Source: a phage. Taken from it: DNA of 64,000 bases. The stretch is taken from assembly GCA_014686905.1 (NCBI GenBank), contig GCA_014686905.1_4093.1; one strand, 5' to 3'. The notes under the pieces were generated by a model, which was not told the origin of the DNA, searched no databases, and worked only from the letters and a program-made list of their open reading frames with translations. Made by a program: the position numbers and the translations under genes. Below, piece by piece: positions 430 to 34,392 of the stretch (the stretch's first letter is position 1; the number at the start of each line of letters is the position of its first letter).

Positions 430-430
430 A

Positions 431-8010: not shown

Positions 8011-8025
8011 ATAGGATAAACTAAA

Positions 8026-8333: not shown

Positions 8334-8552
8334 ATGAAATTATCTAAAATCGAAAAGAAAACTATTGATGAAGCAGTTAAGCACGGTTATACCTTTCGTA
8401 ATGATTCACATTTTACCAATTTTCAACAAGGCCAAAGGACTATTAAAAAACTAATTGACAAAGGTTTATTAGTTAAAGTAGATAACGGTAACGGCATTGA
8501 GTATCAGCCAACCCAAGACGCATTATCTTTAAAGAAATATGCAATTATCTAA
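8334..8552 (+). CDS. hypothetical protein (72 aa)
   Basis: ATG 8334 after duplicated promoter/RBS block 8277-8333. Confidence 0.5.
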   Translation: MKLSKIEKKTIDEAVKHGYTFRNDSHFTNFQQGQRTIKKLIDKGLLVKVDNGNGIEYQPTQDALSLKKYAII

Positions 8553-8609
8553 TTGACAGTACTCAAATGTTTTAGTACTATATGTACATACCAACACGGG
8601 GGAAACAAA

Positions 8610-8852
8610 ATGATTACTTTAGAAAAACGTATCAAAGAAACTACATCGCTGGTGGAACTGTTAACAGTACTGAAATGTAAAACAACACCATTCAGCACGC
8701 CGGACTTTATTAATATGGTTGATGTTAATGGTCGCTATCGTATCACGGTCGAACAAGGAGCGGCGAAAGTATTCAGTACTAAAAACACTAAGGAAGTGAT
8801 CCACGCCGTTAATGTTAAAAAAGTAGTTGCAATTGATAGTAAAGTACTGTAA
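8610..8852 (+). CDS. hypothetical protein (80 aa)
   Basis: ATG 8610 after duplicated promoter/RBS block 8553-8609. Confidence 0.5.
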   Translation: MITLEKRIKETTSLVELLTVLKCKTTPFSTPDFINMVDVNGRYRITVEQGAAKVFSTKNTKEVIHAVNVKKVVAIDSKVL

Positions 8853-8883
8853 TATAGTTTCATTAACTCAAGGAGAACATGCA

Positions 8884-9468
8884 ATGCGTAATTATACTAA
8901 ATTCATCCGTACCCTGTCAGAAATGGAAACTAACAAAGAGATCCTTTCAGCTTGTCGGTTAGCTGGACTGGAGATCATCGGGGCGGGATCTTCCCGTATA
9001 GTTTTCGCTTTAAATGATCGGTTAGTGATTAAGGTCGCCAATTGTGATGCGGGTGTAGAACAAAATGAAACTGAATGTAAGGTATGGAATTTTTTAGACT
9101 ATGACCGCCCTCAATTGAAACAGTACTTTGCTAAAGTGCATATGCATTTAAGCGATCCTGATAATATGTTTATCGTTATGGATCGGTTGAGTACTGCAAG
9201 CAAAGGCAGTGTAAAGCACGTTAACGCGTGCAACGAATTAAAGTACAATATTAAACGTAATGCAATTGAACGCCAGCACCGCTTTGCTGATGCACTACAA
9301 CACGTTGATGATACACTGTCAACACTAACGATAAGAGATATCAGAAAACAGAATATCGGCCAGGATCGCAACGGCCTTATTAAAGTACTTGATTACGGTT
9401 TAACCCGCAATATCTGGAATCAGTACTATAAAAAGCGGGATGTAAAAGCCGTAACTATAACACGATAA
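8884..9468 (+). CDS. minimal protein-kinase-like protein (194 aa)
   Basis: Gly-rich loop GAGSSRIVF, VIKVA lysine, catalytic-loop-like RDIRKQN, DFG-like LDYG with kinase-like spacing; RBS AGGAGA. Confidence 0.55.
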   Translation: MRNYTKFIRTLSEMETNKEILSACRLAGLEIIGAGSSRIVFALNDRLVIKVANCDAGVEQNETECKVWNFLDYDRPQLKQYFAKVHMHLSDPDNMFIVMDRLSTASKGSVKHVNACNELKYNIKRNAIERQHRFADALQHVDDTLSTLTIRDIRKQNIGQDRNGLIKVLDYGLTRNIWNQYYKKRDVKAVTITR

Positions 9469-9477
9469 AAAAGATTA

Positions 9478-9575
9478 AAAAAGGGATTGACTTCGGTCAG
9501 TCCCTTTGCTATTATATATTCATTGAGAGATAGCTCACTGACCCACAGGGTGCATAAATGTATCTATTATATAAG
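9478..9575 (+). repeat. REP-A intergenic element copy 3
   Basis: hairpin GGGATTGAC-TTCG-GTCAGTCCC 9483-9504 then T-run; conserved box CCCACAGGGTGCATAAATGTATCTATT. Confidence 0.6.
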
Positions 9576-9600
9576 TATTCAGTACTGAAAACTATTTTTA

Positions 9601-9671
9601 AAAAAGTACTTGCATTGTACTTAGAATCAAGTATAATGTTTTATATCGAGAGGGGGAAATGGTTCTCCCTC
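9601..9671 (+). promoter_or_regulatory. sigma70-like early promoter plus 5' leader stem-loop
   Basis: TTGCAT 9610-9615, TATAAT 9632-9637; hairpin 9648-9671. Confidence 0.6.
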
Positions 9672-9691
9672 AAAGAATAAGGAATAAAATC

Positions 9692-9913
9692 ATGACTACA
9701 ATGACTTGCATTTACGCTTCCAATCTTCTGAATGATGCGGCCTTTAATGTTGATTCAGAATATCAATGTTATCGGGATGAAAATAAAAAAGTTTTTGTAG
9801 TTGATAATAATGGTTTCCATATTGAATTACAATCCGGTTTCACTGGTGTTGATGGTAAATCAGTATGGGGCGTACAGGATGATAACGGTACATATCATTT
9901 TAAACGTAATTAA
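9692..9913 (+). CDS. hypothetical protein (73 aa)
   Basis: RBS AAGGAATAAA, ATG 9692 (internal Met of track ORF 9659..9913). Confidence 0.55.
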   Translation: MTTMTCIYASNLLNDAAFNVDSEYQCYRDENKKVFVVDNNGFHIELQSGFTGVDGKSVWGVQDDNGTYHFKRN

Positions 9914-9975
9914 GTATTGACAAAGTATCTTAGTACTGTATAATAGTTTACATCAAGGGGAGAATAGTTCTCCCC
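9911..9975 (+). promoter_or_regulatory. sigma70-like early promoter plus 5' leader stem-loop
   Basis: TTGACA 9917-9922, TG-n-TATAAT 9939-9944; hairpin GGGGAGAA/TTCTCCCC 9957-9975. Confidence 0.65.
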
Positions 9976-9997
9976 GATACTAAAAGGAAACAAAATT

Positions 9998-10270
9998 ATG
10001 TCCAGCTACTCCGCTACTATGATCATTAAAGATATGAACGGTAATCCTACTTCTGCTGGTGGATCATTTGGAAACATTAATTTAGATGGTCGGTTATCCA
10101 TGCAATCAGCCATCGATGCAGCGAAAGAAGTTTTTAAGAATGAATGTACTGTTAGTAAGCTGGATTATATGGGATTCGCTATCGAGAAAACTAATCGTTT
10201 TGTGAACTACAAAAATCCACTGATGATTGATACTAACCTGAAAGCTAACGAAGTGGGGTACTTATTATGA
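9998..10270 (+). CDS. hypothetical protein (90 aa)
   Basis: RBS AAAGGAAAC, ATG 9998. Confidence 0.6.
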   Translation: MSSYSATMIIKDMNGNPTSAGGSFGNINLDGRLSMQSAIDAAKEVFKNECTVSKLDYMGFAIEKTNRFVNYKNPLMIDTNLKANEVGYLL

Positions 10271-10458
10271 CAGTAGAAGAAGTTAAAAAAGTACTGGCAG
10301 TACTACGCTATCATAATCATTGCAAGGTGAAGAATGATCCTGATTATGTTGATTCATCCCTGGAGGAAGACACATTAAACGCAATAAGCCATATGCAAAC
10401 ATTAGCAAAGCGTATGACCGAAAAGAATAGACCGGACTATATCGGAAATAAAATTTAA
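10267..10458 (+). CDS. hypothetical protein (63 aa)
   Basis: ATGA overlap with upstream stop. Confidence 0.5.
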   Translation: MTVEEVKKVLAVLRYHNHCKVKNDPDYVDSSLEEDTLNAISHMQTLAKRMTEKNRPDYIGNKI

Positions 10459-10526
10459 AAAGTACTTGCATTGTAGTTAGATTAACGTATAATGTTTTAC
10501 ATAGAGCGGGGGAATAGTTCTCCCGC
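10456..10526 (+). promoter_or_regulatory. sigma70-like early promoter plus 5' leader stem-loop
   Basis: TTGCAT 10466-10471, TATAAT 10488-10493; hairpin GCGGGGGAA/TTCTCCCGC 10506-10526. Confidence 0.6.
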
Positions 10527-10544
10527 CAGTCCAGGAGATACACC

Positions 10545-10808
10545 ATGAACACTATCGAAATCACTATCAATGCACACGTATACGACAACGTAGTACTGCA
10601 AACTACTATGACCGCTAATGATACCAGTACTTTGCGGAATACTGTTATTAGTGCCGTATGTGCCGCTATCGGTGATGTCGCCCTGGAAAATGCAGAACAC
10701 ATCAACGACGGTTTCACTATGTGCAAACGTGATAACGCAAAACATATCATCGTAGAAGGTTACGGCGGTGTAGAATATAATCTTTATATGAAAAAAGTAC
10801 TTGCATAA
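10545..10808 (+). CDS. hypothetical protein (87 aa)
   Basis: RBS AGGAGA, ATG 10545. Confidence 0.55.
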   Translation: MNTIEITINAHVYDNVVLQTTMTANDTSTLRNTVISAVCAAIGDVALENAEHINDGFTMCKRDNAKHIIVEGYGGVEYNLYMKKVLA

Positions 10809-10857
10809 TAACTAAAACAAAGTATAATGTTTTGCATAGGGGGAGATATCCTCCCCC
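10791..10857 (+). promoter_or_regulatory. sigma70-like early promoter plus 5' leader stem-loop
   Basis: TTGCAT 10801-10806, TATAAT 10823-10828; hairpin GGGGGAG/CTCCCCC 10838-10857. Confidence 0.6.
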
Positions 10858-10875
10858 ACTAAAAGGAGTAATAAA

Positions 10876-11100
10876 ATGGCTAACTTTGATGAACTGATGC
10901 GGGAAGTAGCTAACCTGGCAGAAGAGAAAAAATCATTCGATTCTATCTATAACACCGCTCACCGTGATTCAGTACTGGCATGTACTCAGGATCAAAAAGA
11001 TGAACTAATCGCCACATATCATGAAGCATGGAAGTACTACCGCCAATGGGAGAAAGAAGAAAGCGAGTCTACCATCAACGGCATCAATAATCTAATCTAA
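10876..11100 (+). CDS. hypothetical protein (74 aa)
   Basis: RBS AAAGGAG, ATG 10876. Confidence 0.6.
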   Translation: MANFDELMREVANLAEEKKSFDSIYNTAHRDSVLACTQDQKDELIATYHEAWKYYRQWEKEESESTINGINNLI

Positions 11101-11176
11101 AAGTTTTATTTCAGTACTATTGACATAGCTTGATAGTACTGATGTAATAACTTTACTAACTACAAGGGGAAACATA

Positions 11177-11434
11177 ATGGAACAGTTCACACAATATCGG
11201 GTAAATCCTCAAGCTATGGCCTACGTAGAAGACCATAAAACGTTACCAGTACTAACACCAATTAAAGGCCATATCTATCGTGCAATGTCATGGAATACGG
11301 CCCAGGATGGATATACTACCGCTGGCGTGGGTATGTATTGCGGGAATGGTGAATGGTTTGATCCAAATAATCCGGTAGCCATTGACAGTACTGAAAAAAT
11401 GAAATGGGCCGACTACATCGAAGATATTTCATAA
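11177..11434 (+). CDS. hypothetical protein (85 aa)
   Basis: promoter TTGACA...TGTAAT upstream; RBS AGGGGAAA. Confidence 0.6.
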   Translation: MEQFTQYRVNPQAMAYVEDHKTLPVLTPIKGHIYRAMSWNTAQDGYTTAGVGMYCGNGEWFDPNNPVAIDSTEKMKWADYIEDIS

Positions 11435-11501
11435 AACTATTTGACAGTACTAACCAGTAATGTATAATGTTTTACATAGAGCGGGGGAATAGTTCTCCCG
11501 C
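11435..11501 (+). promoter_or_regulatory. sigma70-like early promoter plus 5' leader stem-loop
   Basis: TTGACA 11441-11446, TG-n-TATAAT 11463-11468; hairpin 11480-11501. Confidence 0.6.
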
Positions 11502-11523
11502 CAATAGTTTGGAGTAAAACATT

Positions 11524-11724
11524 ATGTCTATCGCTATCGCCCTGGTTGAAGTACTGAAAGAAGCTAAAGCCAACCTTATCGATGTACAGATTAAGGAATT
11601 GCAAAATGGTTTAATCGGCTGTACTTGTACCGCTGGTGGAGCGGCAGACTATCGGGAATTCGAATCACTTGAATCGATGGTCCGTTATCTTACCATGATC
11701 GTAGAAGATTGGAGAATCATCTAA
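11524..11724 (+). CDS. hypothetical protein (66 aa)
   Basis: RBS GGAG, ATG 11524. Confidence 0.55.
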   Translation: MSIAIALVEVLKEAKANLIDVQIKELQNGLIGCTCTAGGAADYREFESLESMVRYLTMIVEDWRII

Positions 11725-11737
11725 CAAAAAAGAATAA

Positions 11738-11830
11738 AAAAAGGGATTGACTCCGGTCAGTCCCTTTGCTATTATATACGCATAGACAAAAACTAGCCCA
11801 CTGGGTGCAGGAGTGTATCTAAAATATATA
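11738..11830 (+). repeat. REP-A intergenic element copy 4
   Basis: hairpin GGGATTGAC-TCCG-GTCAGTCCC 11743-11764 then T-run; diverged box GCCCACTGGGTGCAGGAGTGTATCTA. Confidence 0.55.
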
Positions 11831-11969
11831 GTTAATAACGGTGAGTAACTATCTGCTGGTGGGGTGAAAACTATTAATAAAAAAGTATTGACAAAGTATA
11901 TCAGTACTGCAATAATGTATCTCGTAGGGCGGCAATGGTGCGACGGCCCACAAAGTTAGGAGATTCAAA

Positions 11970-12302
11970 ATGAGTACTTCAATCGCTATCGTTAAAGCTT
12001 TCATCCGTACCAATGTTTCATCTGTATTCATCGACGGTCTGGATCGGGAAGTAGAATACTCAATCATTATCGCACAGACTGCAAACGGTGCTCGGTATAT
12101 CCTTAATGATAGTGAAGCAAATCACTACTACTTCACTAAAGCCACTGGCTTTAAACGCATCGATGCTGATGTAGTATACGCTAAGATGAATAAGCTGGTA
12201 GACAAGATTAACGCGAAAGGTACTATCGATTTACAGTACTGGAACGAAACCTATCCAGAATATGGATCTCACCGTTACCTGAATCCAGGTATTAAAATGT
12301 AA
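11970..12302 (+). CDS. hypothetical protein (110 aa)
   Basis: promoter TTGACA...GCAATAAT upstream; RBS AGGAGA. Confidence 0.6.
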   Translation: MSTSIAIVKAFIRTNVSSVFIDGLDREVEYSIIIAQTANGARYILNDSEANHYYFTKATGFKRIDADVVYAKMNKLVDKINAKGTIDLQYWNETYPEYGSHRYLNPGIKM

Positions 12303-12370
12303 AAAGTACTTGCATAGTACTTAGAATCAAGTATAATGTTTTACATAGAGAGGGGGAAATGGTTCTCCCT
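12301..12370 (+). promoter_or_regulatory. sigma70-like early promoter plus 5' leader stem-loop
   Basis: TTGCAT 12309-12314, TATAAT 12331-12336; hairpin 12347-12370. Confidence 0.6.
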
Positions 12371-12391
12371 CCTAAATTAAGGAGTTTTATC

Positions 12392-12793
12392 ATGACCTTC
12401 TCAATCAATTCCTTCGCTGACGTTTTAGTACTGGCTCGGACTTTTGGTAAAGATGCACTGGAGTACGCTGTAAGTAATGGTACTATCCAACCGGAACAGT
12501 GCCGCATCATTGGAAACTGCAAACGTTGGGCGGTATCCAATACTATTGCACTGGAAAACTTCCACGATGGCAACAATGAATATTCTGTTGATGTAGTATT
12601 CGAAGCCGTTGATCTCGGCGGTATCTATAATACTAACCTGAATGATGTGCGTATCGTTCGCACGGGGTTCGGTGCTTATGATGTATCTATCCGTGAAGCT
12701 ATGGACACCGGATACATTAGCAAGGACTTACTTGCTCACATCATGCAGCTGTGTACGGAACGTAACGAAGCACGCACTATCTTAGGACTGTAA
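12392..12793 (+). CDS. hypothetical protein (133 aa)
   Basis: RBS AAGGAG, ATG 12392 (internal Met of track ORF 12359..12793). Confidence 0.6.
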   Translation: MTFSINSFADVLVLARTFGKDALEYAVSNGTIQPEQCRIIGNCKRWAVSNTIALENFHDGNNEYSVDVVFEAVDLGGIYNTNLNDVRIVRTGFGAYDVSIREAMDTGYISKDLLAHIMQLCTERNEARTILGL

Positions 12794-12817
12794 GCGTTAC
12801 ACATCACCAAACATCAT

Positions 12818-12840
12818 AGGCCGCCTTGTAGCGGCCTTAA
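12818..12840 (+). terminator. putative intrinsic terminator
   Basis: hairpin AGGCCGC-CTTGTA-GCGGCCT; weak T-tract. Confidence 0.4.
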
Positions 12841-12861
12841 CTATATCAGGAGTACATACAC

Positions 12862-13071
12862 ATGATCTATACAGTATACAGCGTTCTAGGCACTATTGCA
12901 GGCGTACATGATAACGTCGATAGTGCTATGCGTACAGTACTGCAACAGGTTCCACTAAAGCCTAAGACCATTAAGCAGATGACAGCACGACTAACCAGGG
13001 CGACCGATGGCGTGGAAGTATGGCAGGACTACGGGGATACACAGATAATCGTTAGCGTAACGAAGGATTAA
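12862..13071 (+). CDS. hypothetical protein (69 aa)
   Basis: RBS AGGAG, ATG 12862. Confidence 0.5.
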   Translation: MIYTVYSVLGTIAGVHDNVDSAMRTVLQQVPLKPKTIKQMTARLTRATDGVEVWQDYGDTQIIVSVTKD

Positions 13072-13097
13072 TGCGTAAAGGGATCTAGTACTGATTC

Positions 13098-13166
13098 AGA
13101 AAAAAGTCAAGGCGTTTTTAAAATTATGCGTTAAAAAAATGCATAGGTAATCCCTTGACTTTTTTG
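13098..13166. repeat. inverted repeat in non-coding junction
   Basis: AAAAAAGTCAAGG ... CCTTGACTTTTTT separated by ~40 nt; several AAAGGG boxes downstream. Confidence 0.5.
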
Positions 13167-13290
13167 AAATAAAAGGGATTGGACTATGGCAAAATGCGTA
13201 GGGGGCTAAAGGGCGGGTAACCTTAGCGACTTCGATAAAGGGGTATTACGAATAAAATGTTATTGACTTTTTATATGAATCGTATAAAAT

Positions 13291-13518
13291 ATGATCGATA
13301 ATAATTTTAAGGGAGTCCCTATGCGTATTTTAACTAAAGAACAGCACCACGAAAGACTTATCAATAACATGGCTATGATAATGTATAAGTCCCATGACCG
13401 TGGTATTGCCTATAAGCGTGAATTAATTATGGCACTATTCATTGGAACTAACTTTCAGGAAAGGTATGTCAACGATTGGATTTGGTATTTAATTGAAGAT
13501 ATAACGAGTAAACTATGA
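13291..13518 (+). CDS. LGTNYQ-family mini-protein
   Basis: motif FIGTNFQERY; RBS AAGGGAG. Confidence 0.6.
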   Translation: MIDNNFKGVPMRILTKEQHHERLINNMAMIMYKSHDRGIAYKRELIMALFIGTNFQERYVNDWIWYLIEDITSKL

Positions 13519-13715
13519 AAATGCGTATTTTAAATAAAGAAGAATATCAATCACTGTTACGTAAAAACTTCACAAAGATTTATAATACAGACACACACGT
13601 AGAACGAATGGAGTTATACCTTTTGATTACATTGGGAACAAACTATCAGGGTAGATGGGTGTGGCAATATATGGATACATTGAAAAATAAAATATTGTCC
13701 ACGAGGAAACAATGA
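13515..13715 (+). CDS. LGTNYQ-family mini-protein
   Basis: motif TLGTNYQGRW; ATGA coupling. Confidence 0.6.
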   Translation: MKMRILNKEEYQSLLRKNFTKIYNTDTHVERMELYLLITLGTNYQGRWVWQYMDTLKNKILSTRKQ

Positions 13716-13921
13716 AAACTATAACACGAACCCAATCATACGGTCTTATCTTGAAATACATGGACTTAATGGTGGATATCAGCAAAGACCTGCCTAAAAC
13801 TGAAATTGAAGTTGCAAGAGCAGAGATCCGCATGTTGGCTGTACTGAACACAAACCATCAGGAAGATTATGTTGAAGAATGGATTCGATTTTTAATTCAA
13901 GATATAAAGAGTAAATTATGA
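13712..13921 (+). CDS. LGTNYQ-family mini-protein
   Basis: motif VLNTNHQEDY; ATGA coupling. Confidence 0.6.
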   Translation: MKTITRTQSYGLILKYMDLMVDISKDLPKTEIEVARAEIRMLAVLNTNHQEDYVEEWIRFLIQDIKSKL

Positions 13922-14133
13922 TTATTATAGAAAACTCATATCAATATACTGAACGCATCGCTGCCAGACAACTTGAAATCCTCATAATATACGAAGAGAC
14001 TTCTGATTTAAACTTAGCCGAGGTATTGGAAAATGAAATACTTTTGGGTGCATTCTTGGGAACAGACTATCAGGAGTATTATGAGGAAAAGTATTTGTCA
14101 TCTCTTGAGAAATACATCAGGAGTAAATTATGA
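13918..14133 (+). CDS. LGTNYQ-family mini-protein
   Basis: motif FLGTDYQEYY. Confidence 0.6.
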   Translation: MIIIENSYQYTERIAARQLEILIIYEETSDLNLAEVLENEILLGAFLGTDYQEYYEEKYLSSLEKYIRSKL

Positions 14134-14342
14134 TTATATTAACACCTGAAGAATATAAGAAACGTTTTAATTCTGTCCAGACTGAAATATTACTTATATA
14201 CCTTTCAAATGCAGACCTTAACTTATCAAGGGCAATGGAGAAGGATTTACTTATGGGTGCATTTTTGGATACAGACTTTCAGGTGTATTATGTAGGGGAA
14301 TACTTAATTGCACTCCAGAATTACATTAGGAGTAAACTATGA
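14130..14342 (+). CDS. LGTNYQ-family mini-protein
   Basis: motif FLDTDFQVYY. Confidence 0.6.
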   Translation: MIILTPEEYKKRFNSVQTEILLIYLSNADLNLSRAMEKDLLMGAFLDTDFQVYYVGEYLIALQNYIRSKL

Positions 14343-14566
14343 AACATTTAAGTAATATTGAGAAGATGAGAATTATCATTGATGCATTAAACAAATACGA
14401 TACCCTTTTACAAATAAAAGGTTTAACTCGATTGGAACACAAGATAAACACCACCGATGTACGCATGTTGGCTGTACTGGGGACGAACTTTCAGGAAGAG
14501 TATGTTGTTGCACACATAGTTGCACTCACTAATTACATAATGGACAAATGTAATGAACATCATTAA
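14339..14566 (+). CDS. LGTNYQ-family mini-protein
   Basis: motif VLGTNFQEEY. Confidence 0.6.
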   Translation: MKHLSNIEKMRIIIDALNKYDTLLQIKGLTRLEHKINTTDVRMLAVLGTNFQEEYVVAHIVALTNYIMDKCNEHH

Positions 14567-14777
14567 TAACTTTGAATACGAGGCCCGTGCTAAGAGTGCC
14601 AGAAAAAAAGAGAACACCATTTACTTCACTATGATGTACTTACAATGGACTGAAATTGAAGAAAAGGTTGCTGAAGTTTGGATGTTGGAATTCATGGGGA
14701 CGCAGTATCAGAATAGGTTTGCGGGTGAGTATATCAATGTTCTTATGAAACAAATAGAAAGAAAGGAAAAGAACTAA
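14553..14777 (+). CDS. LGTNYQ-family mini-protein
   Basis: motif FMGTQYQNRF. Confidence 0.6.
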   Translation: MNIINNFEYEARAKSARKKENTIYFTMMYLQWTEIEEKVAEVWMLEFMGTQYQNRFAGEYINVLMKQIERKEKN

Positions 14778-14935
14778 TGGTTTTCATTAACATATCTGAC
14801 CAACTCGATACTAAACTAGAAGTCGAGCAGAGTGAGGGATGGATGCTGTACTTTCTTGGAACTTCTCATCAGAATTTTTATATCCATGAACACATAGTTG
14901 CACTCAAGAATTACATTATGGACAAATGCAAATGA
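14777..14935 (+). CDS. LGTNYQ-family mini-protein (short, 52 aa)
   Basis: motif FLGTSHQNFY; ATG shares A with upstream TAA; below track cut-off. Confidence 0.5.
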   Translation: MVFINISDQLDTKLEVEQSEGWMLYFLGTSHQNFYIHEHIVALKNYIMDKCK

Positions 14936-15189
14936 AATACTTAACACAAGATGAATATTCACTTAGAATTCGAAAGCTCACCCCAGAAGCAAGAGTAATC
15001 TACGATGACCCCACCCTTACATGGAACCAAATGCGAGCTAAAGTTAATGAGCTATGGTTGCTGTACTTTATGGGGACTCAATATCAAGATAAGTTTTGCA
15101 AAGAATTTGTCGATCAATTAATGAATGTTATACAGGATAAACTAGATGAATATTGGCTCGCAAAACATGAAGACTTTATCAGGAGTTGA
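14926..15189 (+). CDS. LGTNYQ-family mini-protein
   Basis: motif FMGTQYQDKF. Confidence 0.6.
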   Translation: MQMKYLTQDEYSLRIRKLTPEARVIYDDPTLTWNQMRAKVNELWLLYFMGTQYQDKFCKEFVDQLMNVIQDKLDEYWLAKHEDFIRS

Positions 15190-15418
15190 GTATCAAACTG
15201 CCCTCTTCTCTCTTATTAACACCCTTAGAAAAAACAATGCATTACATGGTGCACCTGAAGTGGATGTTATCAACGGTGATGTTTATCTTATGAAATTCAT
15301 TGGAACAAACTATCAAGATCTGTTCATTCAACGATACTTGGCATCATTAAGAAACCAAATCCAATATAAAACCCAGAGAGCCAAAAAAGAATGGAATAAA
15401 CAATGCGACAAAGACTAA
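15167..15418 (+). CDS. LGTNYQ-family mini-protein
   Basis: motif FIGTNYQDLF; start uncertain (15146 or 15167). Confidence 0.5.
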   Translation: MKTLSGVEYQTALFSLINTLRKNNALHGAPEVDVINGDVYLMKFIGTNYQDLFIQRYLASLRNQIQYKTQRAKKEWNKQCDKD

Positions 15419-15651
15419 ATCACAAAATGTATTGTAAACTATTGCAGACACTGGCACAGAAACACTATGACACGGTATCTGAAATATTACCCTATGATAT
15501 CATGCGTTTACTTCACTGTGAGGCCGAGATGCTTGTACTGATGACAGGCACTGATAAAACAGCAATCGCCAGATCGATAGAGCAATATATTGATGCACAC
15601 TGCCAACACATGAGAACCGAAATCTGGAGGAAAGAGAATGATAATTCTTAA
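15403..15651 (+). CDS. LGTNYQ-family mini-protein (degenerate motif)
   Basis: motif LMTGTDKTAI; same size and array position. Confidence 0.5.
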   Translation: MRQRLNHKMYCKLLQTLAQKHYDTVSEILPYDIMRLLHCEAEMLVLMTGTDKTAIARSIEQYIDAHCQHMRTEIWRKENDNS

Positions 15652-15853
15652 TGAGTATCAGTATCATTGGAGGTTACAAACTATCAAATCAAAAGTGTAT
15701 AGTATTGTGTTAAACAAATCTATTGCACAAGAGGACAAATGTGTTATAATAGCTGAAATGAAGTTGGGTGTATTCGTAGGGACAAACTATCAAAACATCT
15801 ACACTGACGTATTATTAAGTTCCTTACGTAACAAGGTGGTATCCAAAATATGA
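15638..15853 (+). CDS. LGTNYQ-family mini-protein
   Basis: motif FVGTNYQNIY. Confidence 0.6.
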   Translation: MIILNEYQYHWRLQTIKSKVYSIVLNKSIAQEDKCVIIAEMKLGVFVGTNYQNIYTDVLLSSLRNKVVSKI

Positions 15854-16068
15854 GAAATTTACAAGGCTTTGAATACATCAGACTCCTGAAAACATGTGGA
15901 AGCAGAAGGAGAATGATATCAAGCGATAAGAGCATCCAAGCTAACCTTAAGCACGCACTAGTAACTGAACTCTATGTAGGTGCACTCTTAGGCACAAACT
16001 ATCAACAAATGTATGTAGATCTATGGATTGACGCTCTACAGAAAGAGGTTAAAAGTAAATGCAAATGA
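15850..16068 (+). CDS. LGTNYQ-family mini-protein
   Basis: motif LLGTNYQQMY. Confidence 0.6.
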   Translation: MRNLQGFEYIRLLKTCGSRRRMISSDKSIQANLKHALVTELYVGALLGTNYQQMYVDLWIDALQKEVKSKCK

Positions 16069-16277
16069 TTAATTTAAGTAAAGACGAATTTTATGTTATA
16101 CTGGCGAAAACTTATCCAGCACGTAAGGCCGTTTATGATAGTCACATTATTGAACCCTCAAAGAAGTTGATTTTAGTAAATGAGATAAAGATGCTTTCAG
16201 TCTTAGGAACAAACTATCAAGAGAATGCTGTACTGATGTTAATTGATGCCCTCCAGCGAGAGGTTAAACGTAAATGA
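16059..16277 (+). CDS. LGTNYQ-family mini-protein
   Basis: motif VLGTNYQENA. Confidence 0.6.
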   Translation: MQMINLSKDEFYVILAKTYPARKAVYDSHIIEPSKKLILVNEIKMLSVLGTNYQENAVLMLIDALQREVKRK

Positions 16278-16504
16278 AAATGATTCATTTAACTTACCAT
16301 GAATATCAAAAACGTTTAAATGCATCCAGAGATATAAGGATTCAAATATTCAATAACAAAAGATTGAAGCCTGATATCAGAAAAATCAAAATTATAGAAG
16401 CAGAGTTATGCAACTTTCTAGGGACCAACTATCAGGCAGGTAAGGTAAAAAACTATCTTAGAGAACTAATGAATAGTATTGAAAATAAATGTAAGGGTAA
16501 TTAA
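16274..16504 (+). CDS. LGTNYQ-family mini-protein
   Basis: motif FLGTNYQAGK. Confidence 0.6.
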   Translation: MKMIHLTYHEYQKRLNASRDIRIQIFNNKRLKPDIRKIKIIEAELCNFLGTNYQAGKVKNYLRELMNSIENKCKGN

Positions 16505-16505
16505 C

Positions 16506-16745
16506 ATGAAAATGATTAAATTATCTCAAGCAAAATATAAAGAACGCCTGGTGAAAATTGCACCTGGACTTAATGAAATCCATCACGGAGAAGTCATTAA
16601 ACACGGAAATAAGATGATTAAGAAACTTGAGTTAAAGGTGGGTGCATTCATAGGAACAAACTATCAGGAGTATTATGTAGATGAATACATAATCGCACTT
16701 AAGAGATACATTGGAAGAAAACTATATCTACAAACTAAAGAATAG
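16506..16745 (+). CDS. LGTNYQ-family mini-protein
   Basis: motif FIGTNYQEYY; ATG 16506 chosen over upstream track start. Confidence 0.55.
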   Translation: MKMIKLSQAKYKERLVKIAPGLNEIHHGEVIKHGNKMIKKLELKVGAFIGTNYQEYYVDEYIIALKRYIGRKLYLQTKE

Positions 16746-16774
16746 TATTGAAAATAAATGTGAGGTTGATGAAC

Positions 16775-17038
16775 ATGCAAATGATCAATTTAAGTAAAGA
16801 TGAATATACCGAGCGTATGACAAAAATTACGCACAAACGTAATACAATCTATCACAACCCAGAAATTCAACACAGTAAGAAAATGATTATGATGCGTGAG
16901 TTAAAGATGGGTGTATTCTTAGGAACAAACTATCAAGATACAGAAGTAAATCGCTTAATCGCGGAGTTACTACTGGAAATCAGAGGTAAGCTGTACTTTC
17001 ATCAAATGACCCAACCACTGAGGTGTACTAAGAAATGA
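16775..17038 (+). CDS. LGTNYQ-family mini-protein
   Basis: motif FLGTNYQDTE; 5' region near-duplicate of 16479-16510. Confidence 0.55.
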   Translation: MQMINLSKDEYTERMTKITHKRNTIYHNPEIQHSKKMIMMRELKMGVFLGTNYQDTEVNRLIAELLLEIRGKLYFHQMTQPLRCTKK

Positions 17039-17250
17039 TCAACATCACATTGCAAGAAAGATTCATCCGAATCAACTATGCAATTACCAAATTAGATGCT
17101 ACTATAGGATTCCAAAGTCTACCATACAAAACCAGATTGTTATTAGAGTGTGAAGCTAAGTTGGGTGTACTGTTAGGGACGCAACACCAACAACGATATG
17201 TGGAAATCTGGATTGACCTTTTAACCCAAAATATATATGAGAGAATGTAA
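17035..17250 (+). CDS. LGTNYQ-family mini-protein
   Basis: motif LLGTQHQQRY. Confidence 0.6.
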   Translation: MINITLQERFIRINYAITKLDATIGFQSLPYKTRLLLECEAKLGVLLGTQHQQRYVEIWIDLLTQNIYERM

Positions 17251-17481
17251 ATGCAAAATGAAATGATATACTTAACGAATGAAGAATTTCAAGAGAAGAT
17301 GTTAAAAACCAAAAACATTACTCTTAAGTTCGTTCCAAATCAATCAATATCTGAAGTATCTGCAAATGTATTGTTTCAGAAGCTACCATACGTTCTTGGA
17401 ACTGATAAACAAGAATTTATGGTTCAAAATATGATTGAACATCTTATAATGAGTATTAAGGAAAAAGTTAATGCAAAATGA
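17251..17481 (+). CDS. LGTNYQ-family mini-protein
   Basis: motif VLGTDKQEFM; first 26 nt identical to next copy. Confidence 0.6.
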   Translation: MQNEMIYLTNEEFQEKMLKTKNITLKFVPNQSISEVSANVLFQKLPYVLGTDKQEFMVQNMIEHLIMSIKEKVNAK

Positions 17482-17725
17482 AATGATATACTTAACCTAT
17501 AATGAATACGTCGAGAGATTAGTTCGTGCCAAGAGATATACCAATAAACGTCCAATTGACCTAAACCAAACCCCAGCAGAAAGGAGTGCAGAAGTATTAT
17601 TCCAATCACTACCATATCTTCTGGGAACTGATAGACAAGAGGAATATGTTGCACGTATGATTAGATATCTTAAAATCACTATTAAGGAAAAAGTAAATGC
17701 AAATGAAATACTTAACAGACGATGA
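17471..17725 (+). CDS. LGTNYQ-family mini-protein
   Basis: motif LLGTDRQEEY; recent duplicate of 17251..17481 with read-through tail. Confidence 0.6.
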   Translation: MQNEMIYLTYNEYVERLVRAKRYTNKRPIDLNQTPAERSAEVLFQSLPYLLGTDRQEEYVARMIRYLKITIKEKVNANEILNRR

Positions 17726-17948
17726 GTTAAAAGAACGACTAATTAAATCAAGAAAACATACAAATCAACTTCCAAACGACACAAACAAGTCTCCAGCGGA
17801 AAGGAGTGCAGAAGTTTTATACATTCAACTCATGTACTTTCTTGGCACTGACAGACAAGAGTATTACATTGAAAGTATGCTTCGATATCTTAAATTCTCT
17901 ATAAAGGAAAAGATACATGATCAAGTATTTAAAAATCCTAACAGTTAA
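17697..17948 (+). CDS. LGTNYQ-family mini-protein
   Basis: motif FLGTDRQEYY. Confidence 0.6.
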   Translation: MQMKYLTDDELKERLIKSRKHTNQLPNDTNKSPAERSAEVLYIQLMYFLGTDRQEYYIESMLRYLKFSIKEKIHDQVFKNPNS

Positions 17949-18159
17949 TGAATATCATAAGATTGTAATGAAAACTAATAGTGATTACGCTAAAAAATCA
18001 AACCCAAAGTACATACTGGAACACACATTTGAAGAACGTCAATTAGCTTTAGTTGAAGCAAAACTTCTTGCACTATTAGGAACAAACTATCAGGAAGAAT
18101 ACAATAGAAAACTAATATACCTTTTAACTAAACATATAAGAAAAAGAAAAAATGCATGA
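17917..18159 (+). CDS. LGTNYQ-family mini-protein
   Basis: motif LLGTNYQEEY. Confidence 0.6.
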   Translation: MIKYLKILTVNEYHKIVMKTNSDYAKKSNPKYILEHTFEERQLALVEAKLLALLGTNYQEEYNRKLIYLLTKHIRKRKNA

Positions 18160-18386
18160 AACACTTGACAGATGATGAACATGGGCTTATAGTAATGGAT
18201 GTAATCAACATCGAATACAAAAAGTTGATACGCTATCGTTGTTATGAAGATAAGCAACTCGTTCTAGCAGAACAGAAGTTGTTTCGACTCTTAAACACAA
18301 ACTACCAAGCACAATACGAAGAATCGTATATGTACCTTTTGGCGAGGAAAGCAAAAAGAGATTATGAAAATTTTAAGCAAAGGTGA
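18156..18386 (+). CDS. LGTNYQ-family mini-protein
   Basis: motif LLNTNYQAQY. Confidence 0.6.
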   Translation: MKHLTDDEHGLIVMDVINIEYKKLIRYRCYEDKQLVLAEQKLFRLLNTNYQAQYEESYMYLLARKAKRDYENFKQR

Positions 18387-18585
18387 TTCAGTAATATTAC
18401 TTATAGAGAGTTCAAGTAAATTCTTAAACATAACACTGTCTGATATAGATGAAGATGACAAAGAAGTACTGAGAGCAGATTTAAGAGTACTGTTACATAT
18501 CGGAACAAACCTACAAGAAGAATATGTAGAGTGCTACATCAATGAACTTAAAGAATCAGTACTGAGAAAATGCAAATGCAAATGA
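18364..18585 (+). CDS. LGTNYQ-family mini-protein
   Basis: motif HIGTNLQEEY. Confidence 0.6.
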   Translation: MKILSKGDSVILLIESSSKFLNITLSDIDEDDKEVLRADLRVLLHIGTNLQEEYVECYINELKESVLRKCKCK

Positions 18586-18803
18586 AAATCATTACCGATG
18601 TAGAATACCTAACAATCATAAATGGACTGTTTTTGAAGCTCTTCGTCATTAACACATCAGATATACCAGATATGGATAAAATTATTAAGAGAAATGAAGT
18701 CTATGTTCTAGCTACCCTTGGAACGAACTATCAAGAACACGACATTAAAGATTATATTAATACACTTAAACGAGCTATTGAACTAAAATGCCAAAACCAC
18801 TAG
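18582..18803 (+). CDS. LGTNYQ-family mini-protein
   Basis: motif TLGTNYQEHD; ATGA-coupled start 18582 (track start 18570). Confidence 0.55.
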   Translation: MKIITDVEYLTIINGLFLKLFVINTSDIPDMDKIIKRNEVYVLATLGTNYQEHDIKDYINTLKRAIELKCQNH

Positions 18804-19003
18804 GAACAGCAGAATACATTGAACTCATGGGATTACACTTCTCATCCTTTCAGAAACTTATGCGAGAATCAAAGAATGATTTAGAATATACCATCAGAGG
18901 TTCCGATTTAAGAATGCTTCTCACCCTAGACACAGATTCCCAAGAGCGATTTGTCAATGAGCATATTAGAGCACTTTTAATGGAAATTAAAAGTAAACTA
19001 TGA
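18788..19003 (+). CDS. LGTNYQ-family mini-protein
   Basis: motif TLDTDSQERF. Confidence 0.55.
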   Translation: MPKPLGTAEYIELMGLHFSSFQKLMRESKNDLEYTIRGSDLRMLLTLDTDSQERFVNEHIRALLMEIKSKL

Positions 19004-19215
19004 AGATAATATCAAACCAAGAGTACTTGGCACTATTCAGGAAGAATAATCACAAATATATGGCACTTGATTCAAGAACTGATATAAGTGAACTTGAAAA
19101 AAATCTTTTGCGTTCAGATATGATAGTACTGACACTCTTAGGAACACAGCATCAAGAGAGAACTGTTAATTCACACATAGGTATTCTTATACAGATTGTA
19201 CAGGAAAAGATATGA
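19000..19215 (+). CDS. LGTNYQ-family mini-protein
   Basis: motif LLGTQHQERT. Confidence 0.6.
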   Translation: MKIISNQEYLALFRKNNHKYMALDSRTDISELEKNLLRSDMIVLTLLGTQHQERTVNSHIGILIQIVQEKI

Positions 19216-19433
19216 GAATCATATCACAACAAGATATTCTTAAGTTCACAAGGGTTCATGCATCTGAATTTGATGCTATATTATCAAAAAGTTACAATGA
19301 CCCTTATACACAAGATGTACATTACAGTGAATTATGGATGTATATACTTTTAGGTACAAATAAGCAAGAGCAAGCCGTACAGAAGTATTTGACAGCTTTA
19401 CGTGATGCTACAGCTAATGGAGTATGTGTTTAA
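19212..19433 (+). CDS. LGTNYQ-family mini-protein
   Basis: motif LLGTNKQEQA. Confidence 0.6.
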   Translation: MRIISQQDILKFTRVHASEFDAILSKSYNDPYTQDVHYSELWMYILLGTNKQEQAVQKYLTALRDATANGVCV

Positions 19434-19434
19434 T

Positions 19435-19677
19435 ATGAAAGTACTGACAGAACTAGAAATGTATCATAGATTTAATAAGTACTATCATTTACTTAAGCCT
19501 ATACAGAGGATTAAATGTCCATTTGAAGAGAAACAGGTTTTAATCTATGAGCACAAGTTCTTTGTATCATTAGGTACAGATCAACAAGAGTACTATTTGA
19601 CGTTGTACTTGATTACATTAATAGATTTAATTCACTATAAAACCAAACAAGCTAATAAAGAGAAATATGAAAACTAA
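19435..19677 (+). CDS. LGTNYQ-family mini-protein
   Basis: motif SLGTDQQEYY; ATG 19435 right after upstream TAA. Confidence 0.55.
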   Translation: MKVLTELEMYHRFNKYYHLLKPIQRIKCPFEEKQVLIYEHKFFVSLGTDQQEYYLTLYLITLIDLIHYKTKQANKEKYEN

Positions 19678-20686: not shown

Positions 20687-21003
20687 AATTTAATATAGCA
20701 AAAACATCGAGTATATGTATTTTTGGTTATGCTGATGAGTTAGGTGATATTGACATTCTTTTGTACAAAAAGGATGGTGTTATGCATTTCAAGTACCAGG
20801 ATGAAGAGGCAGACAATTATCCTTTACCTAATTTAGTACAAATGCAGGAAGATGAATTATTCCAGTACAGCTTAGTATACGACATTGATATTTGCACGAT
20901 GCCAGTACTAATTAGTATTCAAAAAGTGATGCTCGATATGTATGATAAGCTAATACAAGGTACATCAGGGAGAATCATTGAAATCGATATACAAGACAAT
21001 TAA
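20683..21003 (+). CDS. FQxS-family protein
   Basis: motif EDELFQYSLVYD; ATG 20683. Confidence 0.6.
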   Translation: MKFNIAKTSSICIFGYADELGDIDILLYKKDGVMHFKYQDEEADNYPLPNLVQMQEDELFQYSLVYDIDICTMPVLISIQKVMLDMYDKLIQGTSGRIIEIDIQDN

Positions 21004-21196
21004 TCAAGAATGGAAGACCCAAAAGTACAGGGAATTCAACAGGAATTTTACAAAAGATGCATTGAATTTAAAAACAACAGAGTTTGATATGTTTATTTTT
21101 CTTGGAACACGTTCACAAGAACAATTTGTTCATTATTATATAAATTCGTTGCGAACGGAGATAGTATGCAAAACACAGGGTATTATAAAAAGGTAA
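20978..21196 (+). CDS. LGTNYQ-like mini-protein (outlier copy)
   Basis: motif FLGTRSQEQF; no in-frame ATG near 5' end, possible TTG start. Confidence 0.35.
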   Translation: MKSIYKTINQEWKTQKYREFNRNFTKDALNLKTTEFDMFIFLGTRSQEQFVHYYINSLRTEIVCKTQGIIKR

Positions 21197-21432
21197 ACCA
21201 ATATTTGTACGCTACAAAGTACAGGGATTTTTGTTTAAAGGGTGGTGATGAAGATTTTTCTTTGCGATTATCAGAATTTAATCTGTTATTTTATCTTGGT
21301 ACAAAAGAACAAGAAGAAATGGCACAGAAATTTATCAAGCACCTTTTACAAAAAATTAATATGCAAATTTTGATGCTTAAGTTACAGAATGAGATAAATG
21401 AATATGAATCCAGAAATAGTTCAGGATCTTAA
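21166..21432 (+). CDS. LGTNYQ-like mini-protein (outlier copy)
   Basis: motif YLGTKEQEEM. Confidence 0.5.
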   Translation: MQNTGYYKKVNQYLYATKYRDFCLKGGDEDFSLRLSEFNLLFYLGTKEQEEMAQKFIKHLLQKINMQILMLKLQNEINEYESRNSSGS

Positions 21433-34040: not shown

Positions 34041-34223
34041 ATGAGAACTGTGAGTGCAGTGTGGGACATATGGTTCACTACTAAACCAAAAATGGATTAC
34101 CATGACTTTAAGCTCTTGTTCTTCGTTGGCTCTAACAAACAGGATGTTGCAATGAAGGGTTATATTCAGCACTTACAGGAACTAATCCAGAAGAGAATAT
34201 ATGAAAATAATAGACCAAAATGA
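34041..34223 (+). CDS. LGTNYQ-like mini-protein (outlier copy)
   Basis: motif FVGSNKQDVA; start uncertain. Confidence 0.4.
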   Translation: MRTVSAVWDIWFTTKPKMDYHDFKLLFFVGSNKQDVAMKGYIQHLQELIQKRIYENNRPK

Positions 34224-34392
34224 CATTGCTAAACTATTCAATATATATTCTACTAGAATGATGCAAACAGACTCATATAGTACTGAATTCAAAGAGTTGA
34301 AAGTCCTGATGTACTTGGGAACCCAATATCAGGAACAAGTTATTTTGGAATATATTAATTCGCTGAAGAAGGATATCCGTTATGTACGATGA
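34201..34392 (+). CDS. LGTNYQ-like mini-protein (outlier copy)
   Basis: motif YLGTQYQEQV. Confidence 0.5.
   Translation: MKIIDQNDIAKLFNIYSTRMMQTDSYSTEFKELKVLMYLGTQYQEQVILEYINSLKKDIRYVR

What the first reader, a model, noticed from the sequence alone, without database searches (positions are those of the whole stretch)
13291..19677. Array of 29 LGTNYQ-motif mini-proteins
Twenty-nine head-to-tail ~70-aa genes, mostly with ATGA stop/start overlap, share a central hydrophobic-[LFM]-G-T-[NDQ]-[YFH]-Q-[ED]-x-[YF] motif. Adjacent copies are recent duplicates (17251 and 17471 begin with 26 identical nt; 16479 and 16748 share their 5' ends). Four outlier copies (20978, 21166, 34041, 34201) lie inside the FQxS array, so the two families move together. 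Function unknown.
Basis: seen in the sequence. Interest (0 to 1): 0.8.

Follow-up and report, generated by a model that had tools for sequence, protein, structure and literature searches.

The report
Tandem small-protein family in jumbo coliphage
A giant E. coli virus carries 29 back-to-back genes (33 in all) for a family of ~70-residue four-helix proteins; the genes are real and under selection, but the family's function is unknown, and its position and its widely differing surfaces point to an early-expressed set of protein binders.

Summary
The window comes from an Asteriusvirus jumbo coliphage, 97% identical to G17 and Sharanji. Positions 13321-19677 hold 29 contiguous same-strand genes of one family, and four more copies lie at 20978, 21166, 34041 and 34201.

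The family is protein-coding. AlphaFold gives a four-helix bundle at pLDDT 97. Orthologue dN/dS is 0.30-0.37. The invariant Thr, Gly and Gln use all their synonymous codons, and there is no DNA-level tandem repeat.

The copies are old, not recent. Paralogues have a median 28% identity and a maximum of 57%, yet each is kept as an orthologue across the genus. Copy number in the array ranges from 20 to 29.

The array starts 98 bp after the inner end of the ~20.7-kb direct terminal repeat. It sits behind a sigma-70-like promoter, in a one-directional region dense with consensus early promoters.

No Pfam, PDB, PADLOC or fold match was found. The only match is phrog_4148, of unknown function. The family is confined to Asteriusvirus and uncultured relatives.

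The conserved positions are the hydrophobic core and the helix 3/helix 4 turn. Surfaces vary widely (pI 4.3-9.9).

My best reading, at about 0.4, is an early, translationally coupled set of small binders that act on the host or on its defences. Tandem arrays were mentioned in passing for 121Q and phAPEC6. Interest is moderate.

The parts
13074..13223 (+). Inner end of the direct terminal repeat (DTR). Window 13223 corresponds to base 1 of the G17 genome record. A locally GC-rich segment lies here.
   Evidence: G17 positions 1-20668 are 100% identical to 350150-370817. G17 1-150, reverse-complemented, equals window 13074-13223 at 100%. DTR size was measured experimentally in relatives (PMC6563267, PMC11895373, PMC13070987).
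13263..13290 (+). Sigma-70-like promoter (TTGACT, 16-nt spacer, TAAAAT) just upstream of the array
   Evidence: Consensus scan, 10 of 12 matches. This is a prediction only.
13321..13518 (+).
   Evidence: HMM 68 bits. AAGGGAG Shine-Dalgarno sequence before 13321. G17 annotates the same start.
13515..13715 (+). Array gene 2
   Evidence: HMM 66 bits; ATGA overlap
13712..13921 (+). Array gene 3
   Evidence: HMM 76 bits; ATGA overlap
13918..14133 (+). Array gene 4 (pI 4.3)
   Evidence: HMM 65 bits; pI
14130..14342 (+). Array gene 5 (49% identical to gene 4)
14339..14566 (+). Array gene 6
   Evidence: HMM 78 bits
14553..14777 (+). Array gene 7
   Evidence: HMM 76 bits
14777..14935 (+). Array gene 8 (short, 52 aa, lacks helices 1-2)
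   Evidence: HMM 63 bits, profile positions 11-73
14926..15189 (+). Array gene 9 (this allele differs from Sharanji's, 81% nt identity)
15146..15418 (+). Array gene 10 (this allele differs from Sharanji's, 78% nt identity)
15403..15651 (+). Array gene 11 (divergent motif, GTDKT plus an insertion)
   Evidence: HMM 62 bits
15638..15853 (+). Array gene 12
   Evidence: HMM 76 bits
15850..16068 (+). Array gene 13
   Evidence: HMM 83 bits
16059..16277 (+). Array gene 14 (the protein that was modelled)
   Evidence: AlphaFold pLDDT 97.3, pTM 0.83
16274..16504 (+). Array gene 15
   Evidence: HMM 84 bits
16506..16745 (+). Array gene 16 (ATG 16506 preferred over TTG 16479)
   Evidence: G17 and Sharanji annotate the equivalent start
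16775..17038 (+). Array gene 17 (47% identical to gene 16)
17035..17250 (+). Array gene 18
   Evidence: HMM 70 bits
17251..17481 (+). Array gene 19
17471..17725 (+). Array gene 20 (57% identical to gene 19, the closest pair; the first 26 nt are identical)
17697..17948 (+). Array gene 21
   Evidence: HMM 83 bits
17917..18159 (+). Array gene 22
   Evidence: HMM 70 bits
18156..18386 (+). Array gene 23
   Evidence: HMM 56 bits
18364..18585 (+). Array gene 24
   Evidence: HMM 72 bits
18570..18803 (+). Array gene 25
   Evidence: HMM 79 bits
18788..19003 (+). Array gene 26
   Evidence: HMM 66 bits
19000..19215 (+). Array gene 27
   Evidence: HMM 74 bits
19212..19433 (+). Array gene 28
   Evidence: HMM 72 bits
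19435..19677 (+). Array gene 29 (ATG 19435 preferred over GTG 19402)
   Evidence: G17 annotates the equivalent start
20978..21196 (+). Outlier member with a TTG start, not annotated in G17 or Sharanji
   Evidence: HMM 69 bits. No CDS at this place.
21166..21432 (+). Outlier member
   Evidence: HMM 63 bits
34041..34223 (+). Weak outlier member (VGSNKQ; the start may be 34005)
   Evidence: HMM 25 bits, E=7e-7; motif
34201..34392 (+). Outlier member
   Evidence: HMM 45 bits

Best explanation
The array is an old, lineage-specific tandem expansion of one small soluble protein, a ~70-residue four-helix bundle.

The 29 genes are read in one direction as a polycistronic unit. Transcription would start at a host-type promoter 40 bp past the end of the terminal repeat, with possible read-through from the strong early promoters in the repeat. 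Translation is coupled: stop and start codons overlap, and the Shine-Dalgarno sequence of each gene is embedded in the 3' codons of the gene before it.

The conserved residues build the hydrophobic core and the Gly-Thr-Asn-x-Gln-Glu turn that joins helix 3 to helix 4 and pins down the N-terminal strand. Everything exposed differs between paralogues, with net charge from -8.5 to +8.7.

Inferred: the array supplies, early in infection, a panel of about 30 differently surfaced binders. Each would neutralise or redirect a different protein, most plausibly variable host defence, toxin or takeover targets. Gain, loss and allele swapping of members between phages would then tune the panel to different hosts.

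Shown: the genes are real, selected, folded, arrayed and diversified. Predicted: expression timing. Inferred: the binder or anti-host role.
For: Coding and fold:
- AlphaFold pLDDT 97.3, four helices.
- Orthologue dN/dS is 0.30-0.37 against five phages.
- Core columns have omega 0.13-0.24 and paralogue-variable columns 0.38-0.43, so even the variable surfaces are kept within each orthologue line.
- All synonymous codons are used at the invariant Thr, Gly and Gln.

Operon and coupling:
- Junction overlaps.
- SD-like 4-mers precede 18 of 29 starts against a 10% background, p=2e-11.
- No gaps, and only chance-level terminator-like matches within the array.

Early context:
- The array starts 98 bp after the DTR end.
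- About 19 consensus sigma-70 promoters lie in the 13 kb upstream, ten of them matching 12 of 12.
- Upstream neighbours include a DksA/TraR zinc finger, a GNAT acetyltransferase and a ParE-like domain protein.
- For the related phage CBB the promoter-rich region next to the terminal repeat was proposed to be early host-takeover genes (PMC5259590).

Diversified repertoire:
- pI 4.3-9.9.
- Paralogues have a median 28% identity.
- The array holds 20-29 copies among relatives.
- Alleles are mosaic: 100%-identical genes sit next to 77-81% ones.

Not structural: no array-sized protein appears among the 62 phAPEC6 virion proteins (PMC7247149).

Old and retained: a distant uncultured relative keeps at least 12 members at the same syntenic position.
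Against: - There is no direct evidence of expression, timing or any binding partner.
- No similarity to any known inhibitor, anti-defence or host-takeover protein.
- The array's own promoter is only a 10-of-12 match, and such matches occur at chance frequency in this AT-rich DNA.
- An omega of about 0.4 on surface columns shows no net positive selection of the kind expected in a fast arms race.
- Conserved polar residues (E10, E42, T51, Q54, E55) could instead form a common functional site.
- Loss of up to nine members in viable phages shows that individual copies are dispensable.
Confidence: 0.4

Rival explanations
1. The proteins are partners (adaptors, chaperones or inhibitors) of the phage's own second expanded family. 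That family is the 110-225-residue FQxS proteins that follow the array. The two families would form cognate pairs or mixed complexes.
For: - FQxS has 39 members in the window, directly downstream of the array.
- Four LGT copies are embedded in the FQxS region, at places conserved in PBECO4, 121Q and A4.
- In the distant relative L010 the two families are interleaved gene by gene.
Against: - The main LGT array is contiguous, with no FQxS gene inside it, so pairs are not adjacent.
- Copy numbers do not co-vary: 33 and 39 in the window against 25 and 37 in A4.
- No fusion protein of the two domains was seen among the 92 family representatives.
Confidence: 0.15
2. They are small regulators of nucleic-acid transactions, either DNA- or RNA-binding or RNA-polymerase-binding factors. 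Each paralogue would tune a subset of phage or host genes.
For: - They are small helical proteins in an early region.
- About 40% (13 of 31) of the members are basic, with pI above 8.5.
- Large expansions of small putative transcription factors are known in phage G (PMC7824862).
Against: - No Pfam HTH hit.
- Many members are acidic, down to pI 4.3 and charge -8.5, which does not fit a shared nucleic-acid-binding role.
Confidence: 0.1
3. The array is largely dispensable duplicated DNA. It would be retained because the headful-sized capsid must be filled (the capsid and genome ratchet of Hua et al.), and the proteins would have little or no function.
For: - Hua et al. cite a tandem array in 121Q as evidence for genome growth by duplication (PMC5646251).
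- Copy number varies from 20 to 29 in viable phages.
- Omega is higher than for the terminal-repeat genes (0.31-0.34 against 0.14-0.18).
Against: - dN/dS is well below 1 in every comparison, and below 0.25 on core columns.
- Only a few reading frames appear broken in the other phages (3-4 of 29 blastn matches per comparison with 121Q, UE-S1, ph0011 and A4).
- Every paralogue is kept as an orthologue across the genus and in a distant relative.
- Translation signals are maintained.
Confidence: 0.1
4. They are virion or inner-body proteins, packaged with the DNA and injected into the host.
For: 121Q and phAPEC6 show an inner body in bubblegram imaging (PMC5646251, PMC7247149). Paralogous inner-body families exist in phiKZ (PMC12676376).
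Against: The phAPEC6 virion proteome of 62 proteins contains nothing of 8-10 kDa, and nothing between gp347 and gp549, where the array lies. The genomic context is early genes, not the structural module.
Confidence: 0.03
5. The motif comes from a repeated DNA element read in a fortuitous frame, and there is no gene family.
For: None found.
Against: - Tandem Repeats Finder sees no ~215-bp repeat.
- Conserved residues use all synonymous codons.
- dN/dS is below 1.
- The fold is predicted confidently.
- Profile hits occur only in one frame of one strand.
Confidence: 0.01

Closest known systems
Lineage-specific tandem expansions of small proteins in jumbo phages, for example the ~35 zinc-ribbon copies of Bacillus phage G (Iyer et al. 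2021, PMC7824862). [quoted passage not shown] 2017, PMC5646251) and the 'array of closely related genes' noted in phAPEC6 (PMC7247149).
   Same: Dozens of tandem, same-strand paralogues of a small domain in a phage genome over 300 kb. They are interpreted as products of tandem duplication and have no experimental function. The 121Q remark may refer to this very array or to its FQxS neighbour.
   Different: The fold is different: a four-helix bundle with no zinc ligands. The earlier papers give no family definition, structure, selection analysis or position relative to the terminal repeat.
Host-takeover or early modules at phage genome ends: the SPO1 terminal-redundancy module, T5 pre-early genes, and Tre genes of Twort-like phages (own knowledge). 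Also the proposed early region of phage CBB (PMC5259590).
   Same: Many small genes of unknown function, all in one direction, next to or within long direct terminal repeats, and driven by host-type promoters.
   Different: The array lies just outside the repeat, not in it. It is one paralogous family in a tightly coupled operon, not a set of unrelated genes each with its own promoter. Early expression has not been shown.
Polyimmunity loci: tandem arrays of diversified small immunity proteins in bacteria and some viruses (Zhang, Iyer, Aravind; own knowledge).
   Same: Tandem arrays of small paralogues with a conserved scaffold and divergent surfaces. The idea is that each neutralises a different toxin variant.
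   Different: No sequence or fold relation to SUKH, Imm or colicin-immunity families. No cognate toxin gene is adjacent. The array is in a lytic phage.
Poxvirus 'genomic accordions': transient amplification of a host-range gene (own knowledge).
   Same: Tandem copy-number change of a viral gene, thought to act against the host.
   Different: Accordions are recent, near-identical copies made for dosage. Here the copies are at most 57% identical and individually conserved, so this is an ancient diversified repertoire.

Membership tests
PHROG phrog_4148 (unknown function) | Significant match to the family profile over most of its length | tested here: met
   30 of 31 members match, best E=2e-26. 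Member 1 covers profile positions 1-70 of 74. 15 members also hit phrog_28039.
Any Pfam-A, NCBIfam or PADLOC family | Score above the curated or significant threshold | tested here: not met
   Only scattered single-member hits with E of 0.0006 or worse.
Proteins with a solved structure | Sequence-profile or fold match to a PDB chain | tested here: not met
   [not shown]
Helix-turn-helix DNA-binding proteins (Xre or LuxR type) | Tri-helical HTH fold, with a basic recognition helix conserved across the family | tested here: not met
   [not shown]
Polyimmunity or colicin-type immunity proteins | Homology to an immunity family (SUKH, Imm, Im7/Im9) | tested here: not met
   [not shown]
Polyimmunity or colicin-type immunity proteins | Tandem array of diversified small paralogues | tested here: met
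   29 contiguous genes with median 28% identity.
Polyimmunity or colicin-type immunity proteins | Binding and neutralisation of a cognate toxin | not testable with these tools
   This needs biochemistry or multimer modelling.
Genomic accordion (recent dosage amplification) | Near-identical copies, with copy number differing between very close isolates | tested here: not met
   Maximum paralogue identity is 57%. The window, G17, Sharanji and PBECO4 all have 29 copies.
Terminal-repeat-encoded early (host-takeover) module | Located inside the direct terminal repeat | tested here: not met
   The repeat ends at window 13223 and the array begins at 13321.
Terminal-repeat-encoded early (host-takeover) module | Transcribed early from host sigma-70 promoters | tested here: inconclusive
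   A 10-of-12 promoter match lies at 13263-13290, and there are many 12-of-12 promoters upstream. No transcript data exist.
Virion or inner-body proteins | Detected in purified particles | tested here: not met
   Absent from the published phAPEC6 virion proteome (PMC7247149 Table 1). Small proteins can escape mass spectrometry.

The most novel reading that the evidence does not exclude
The LGT-x-x-Q family (33 copies) and the adjacent FQxS family (39 copies) matched no solved (PDB) fold; the FQxS model is only moderately confident (pLDDT 77.5). Both are confined to one clade of giant coliphages. Together they could form a matched, combinatorial two-component system: a library of small four-helix modules that pair with a library of larger alpha/beta modules. 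Such a system would create many distinct specificities against variable host immunity, as a phage-encoded 'repertoire' with no described counterpart.
Probability: 0.1. Interest if true: 0.8.

Novelty: new member of a known kind. Interest (0 to 1): 0.45.

Why it matters
More than 80% of the genes in Asteriusvirus jumbo phages have no assigned function. About 10% of the gene count in this region belongs to just two expanded families.

This work shows several things about the 29-gene array:
- It encodes a confidently folded protein that is under purifying selection and has no detectable relative.
- The duplications are ancient, and each copy is kept.
- The array sits at the boundary of the terminal repeat, in a predicted early region.

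That turns a block of 'hypothetical proteins' into a defined, testable candidate for host-range or anti-defence function. If the members prove to be specific inhibitors, they would be a source of about 30 new small protein binders, and a clue to how these phages, which are being proposed for therapy, cope with diverse E. coli strains.

If deletion shows no phenotype, the array becomes a clean example of genome inflation by duplication.

Tried and rejected
- Pfam, NCBIfam, PADLOC and PDB-sequence searches of all members gave nothing.
- An exhaustive HMMER search of 1.84 billion representatives gave 92 hits. All are small LGT-motif proteins except P0179, which proved to be a eukaryotic RhoGAP-like repeat protein and therefore spurious.
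- I looked for the family outside Asteriusvirus by tblastn. Only 36 Escherichia or Salmonella jumbo-phage records hold it.
- I tested one-to-one pairing of the two families by copy number. They do not co-vary.
- I considered an HTH or LuxR-like reading of the motif from memory. It was rejected on the fold search and the charge spread.
- I considered the G-T-N-x-Q-E motif as a catalytic site. Its position at the helix 3/helix 4 turn, with Asn/Asp at the N-cap position and Glu three residues later, fits a structural capping box.
- The literature search found no functional study. There are only passing mentions of tandem arrays.

Full report
**Source of the window.** Megablast of 13291-19677 finds 36 phage records, all Escherichia or Salmonella jumbo phages of about 350 kb. 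The best are G17 and Sharanji (genus Asteriusvirus) at 97.3% identity over the full length. Every gene under the match is annotated 'hypothetical protein' in every record.

**The observation.** The ORF list shows 29 head-to-tail ORFs of 52-96 aa on the + strand.
- A profile built from them and run against all six-frame ORFs of the window recovers 33 members, all on the + strand. These are the 29 array genes plus 20978, 21166, 34201 and a weak one at 34041. The next best ORF scores E=0.46. All-against-all phmmer puts 32 of them in one cluster.
- Thr of the motif is invariant. Gln and a downstream Leu are each present in 30 of 31 members, and Gly in 27 of 31.
- Strict ATGA overlaps occur at 11 of 28 junctions, or 16 of 28 if a proximal ATG is used. 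The 26 identical nucleotides at 17251 and 17471 are real.
- Three starts are better placed downstream (13321, 16506, 16775), as in the G17 and Sharanji annotations.

**Is it coding?** Yes, on five independent grounds.
- AlphaFold2 with the paralogue alignment gives pLDDT 97.3 and pTM 0.83 for the 72-aa protein at 16059. It has four helices (8-17, 19-27, 33-47, 54-71) and a beta-bridge between residue 4 and the invariant Thr51.
- Orthologue comparisons with PBECO4, 121Q, UE-S1, ph0011 and A4 give concatenated dN/dS of 0.30-0.37.
- The invariant Thr is written with all four codons, Gly with all four and Gln with both. Tandem Repeats Finder sees no repeat of about 215 bp. Conservation therefore acts on the protein, not the DNA.
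- SD-like 4-mers precede 18 of 29 starts against a 10% background (p=2e-11).
- Two recurrent junction types show dual coding. '...(R/K)SKL*' is encoded by AGGAGTAAAyTATGA, which supplies both the Shine-Dalgarno sequence and the ATGA overlap for the next gene. '...KCK*' is encoded by AAATGCAAATGA, which supplies the 'MQM' N-terminus of the next gene.

**Age and dynamics.**
- Paralogues are 28% identical at the median and 57% at most (genes 19 and 20).
- Neighbours are slightly more alike than non-neighbours (32% against 28%, permutation p<0.0002), and the closest pairs are adjacent (4/5, 13/14, 16/17, 19/20/21, 22/23). This is the signature of tandem duplication, but old duplication.
- Each paralogue has its own orthologue, usually 90-100% identical, in sister phages.
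- The contiguous array holds 29 copies in the window, G17, Sharanji and PBECO4. It holds about 27 in ph0011, 26 in UE-S1, 23 in 121Q and 20 in A4.
- Identity along the array is mosaic. Against Sharanji, genes 9 and 10 are 81% and 78% identical while many other genes in the array, including genes 11-14, are 99.5-100% identical. That indicates allele exchange.
- dN/dS of the array (0.31-0.34) is about twice that of the terminal-repeat genes (0.14-0.18). It equals that of the downstream FQxS region (0.29-0.33).
- Within the family, core columns have omega 0.13-0.24 and paralogue-variable columns 0.38-0.43. The divergent surfaces are therefore still conserved within each orthologue line, with no net positive selection.

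**Genomic position.** The G17 record contains both copies of the direct terminal repeat. Positions 1-20668 are 100% identical to 350150-370817.
- G17 base 1 maps exactly to window 13223. So window 1-13223 is the inner 13 kb of the repeat, and gene 1 of the array starts 98 bp beyond it.
- The repeat length is supported experimentally: by read coverage for G17 (PMC6563267), by PhageTerm for Sharanji at 20,668 bp (PMC11895373), and by PhageTerm plus restriction mapping for fEgEco12 at 20,993 bp (PMC13070987).
- The repeat part of the window carries about 19 near-consensus sigma-70 promoters. Ten match 12 of 12, and most share a GTACTG element before the -10 box. It also carries repeated hairpin-promoter units.
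- Its genes include a DksA/TraR zinc finger, a GNAT acetyltransferase and a ParE-like domain protein.
- The array has one weaker promoter-like site (TTGACT, 16-nt spacer, TAAAAT, at 13263-13290) and no internal gaps.
- All genes across the whole 64 kb run the same way.
- For the related phage CBB the equivalent promoter-rich region was proposed to be the early, host-takeover region (PMC5259590).

Early expression here is a prediction, not a result.

**Distribution.**
- An exhaustive HMMER search of 1.84 billion representative proteins finds only 92 clusters. All are 52-122 aa with the G-T-x-x-Q motif, apart from one spurious eukaryotic repeat protein.
- tblastn finds the family in only 36 phage records.
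- A 101-kb metagenomic contig (L010) from a much more distant relative has 40-60% protein identity in syntenic genes, and no isolate matches its array. It keeps at least 12 contiguous members just downstream of the orthologue of the last repeat gene. Further members there are interleaved with FQxS genes.

**What the protein looks like.**
- Conserved positions are hydrophobic at helical spacing (M3, L6, Y11, L15, I25, V38, L45, L49, Y57, V58, Y61, I62, L65, I69). The conserved polar positions are E10, E42, G50, T51, N52, Q54, E55 and K72.
- Gly50 ends helix 3. Asn/Asp52 and Glu55 fit an N-cap/N3 capping box for helix 4. Thr51 bridges to the N-terminal strand. I infer this from the secondary structure, without coordinates.
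- pI runs from 4.3 to 9.9 and net charge from -8.5 to +8.7.
- A conserved scaffold with very different surfaces argues for diversified protein-protein recognition. It argues against a shared enzymatic or nucleic-acid-binding role.

**Comparison with known families.** There is no Pfam, NCBIfam, PADLOC or PDB-sequence match.
- The phAPEC6 virion proteome contains no array protein.
- Two papers mention tandem arrays in these phages in one sentence each, as evidence for genome growth by duplication. Neither offers any analysis (PMC5646251, PMC7247149).

**Verdict.** The array is a real, ancient, lineage-specific expansion of a small four-helix protein that matched no solved (PDB) structure. It is organised as a translationally coupled operon at the inner border of the terminal repeat.
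- The most likely role, at about 0.4, is an early-expressed panel of diversified binders acting on host or defence proteins.
- Pairing with the FQxS family (0.15), small regulators (0.1) and near-neutral duplicated filler (0.1) remain open.
- The phenomenon, a tandem paralogue array in a jumbo phage, is a known kind and was noted before. The family definition, fold, selection pattern and position are new, so I rate it a new member of a known kind, of moderate interest.

Noticed in passing
[not shown]
   Followed up: partly
window 13074-13260: The inner end of the ~20.7-kb direct terminal repeat maps to window 13223. It lies in a locally GC-rich stretch (GCGTAGGGGGCTAAAGGGCGGGTAACCT|TAGCGACTTCG) in otherwise AT-rich DNA, possibly the terminase processing site. 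A distant metagenomic relative still matches this stretch at about 65% identity.
   Followed up: partly
window 678-11916: About 19 near-consensus sigma-70 promoters, ten of them perfect TTGACA-16/17-TATAAT. They share an A-rich upstream element and an (A)GTACTG motif just before the -10 box. Almost every small gene of the repeat has its own copy.
   Followed up: partly
window 2545, 6219, 9487, 11747: A hairpin-plus-promoter unit is repeated four times: AAAGGGATTGACTyCGGTCAGTCCCTTTGCTATTATAT. It is a terminator-like stem whose loop region contains a -35 box, followed by a -10 box.
   Followed up: no
window 8026-8280: An 84-aa protein with a ParE-like toxin domain (Pfam PF24732, E=6e-11), with no obvious antitoxin partner identified. 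It is 85% identical to its counterpart in the distant relative L010, far more conserved than its neighbours.
   Followed up: no
window 4533-4790, 4854-5210, 8827-9468: A DksA/TraR C4 zinc-finger protein, a GNAT acetyltransferase, and a weak protein-kinase-like match that falls below the Pfam cut-off. All lie inside the terminal repeat and are plausible host-takeover functions.
   Followed up: no
window 60946-62088: A T4 Rnl1-type RNA ligase (both Pfam domains, E about 1e-16), the kind of enzyme that repairs tRNA cut by host anticodon nucleases.
   Followed up: no
window 20978-21196: A family member with a TTG start and a 69-bit profile score has no CDS at the equivalent place in the G17 and Sharanji annotations. 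It is probably a missed gene.
   Followed up: partly
window 14926-15418: Genes 9 and 10 are only 78-81% identical to Sharanji and G17, while genes 11-14 just downstream are 99.5-100% identical and gene 7 is 99.1% (gene 8 is 93.6%). This is a local allele replacement, from recombination between phages or between paralogues.
   Followed up: partly
L010 14699-15100: In the metagenomic relative, one 133-aa ORF gives two hits to the family profile. This suggests a fused double-domain member.
   Followed up: no
window 55403-57261: A small third paralogue family of four ~90-130-aa proteins (55403, 56254, 56528, 56899).
   Followed up: no
G17 record 25040-31028 (L003); phAPEC6 gp003-gp010, gp549, gp551: Another tandem family outside the window: ~41-kDa proteins annotated as 'DNA condensation proteins'. 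Several were detected in the phAPEC6 virion proteome.
   Followed up: no
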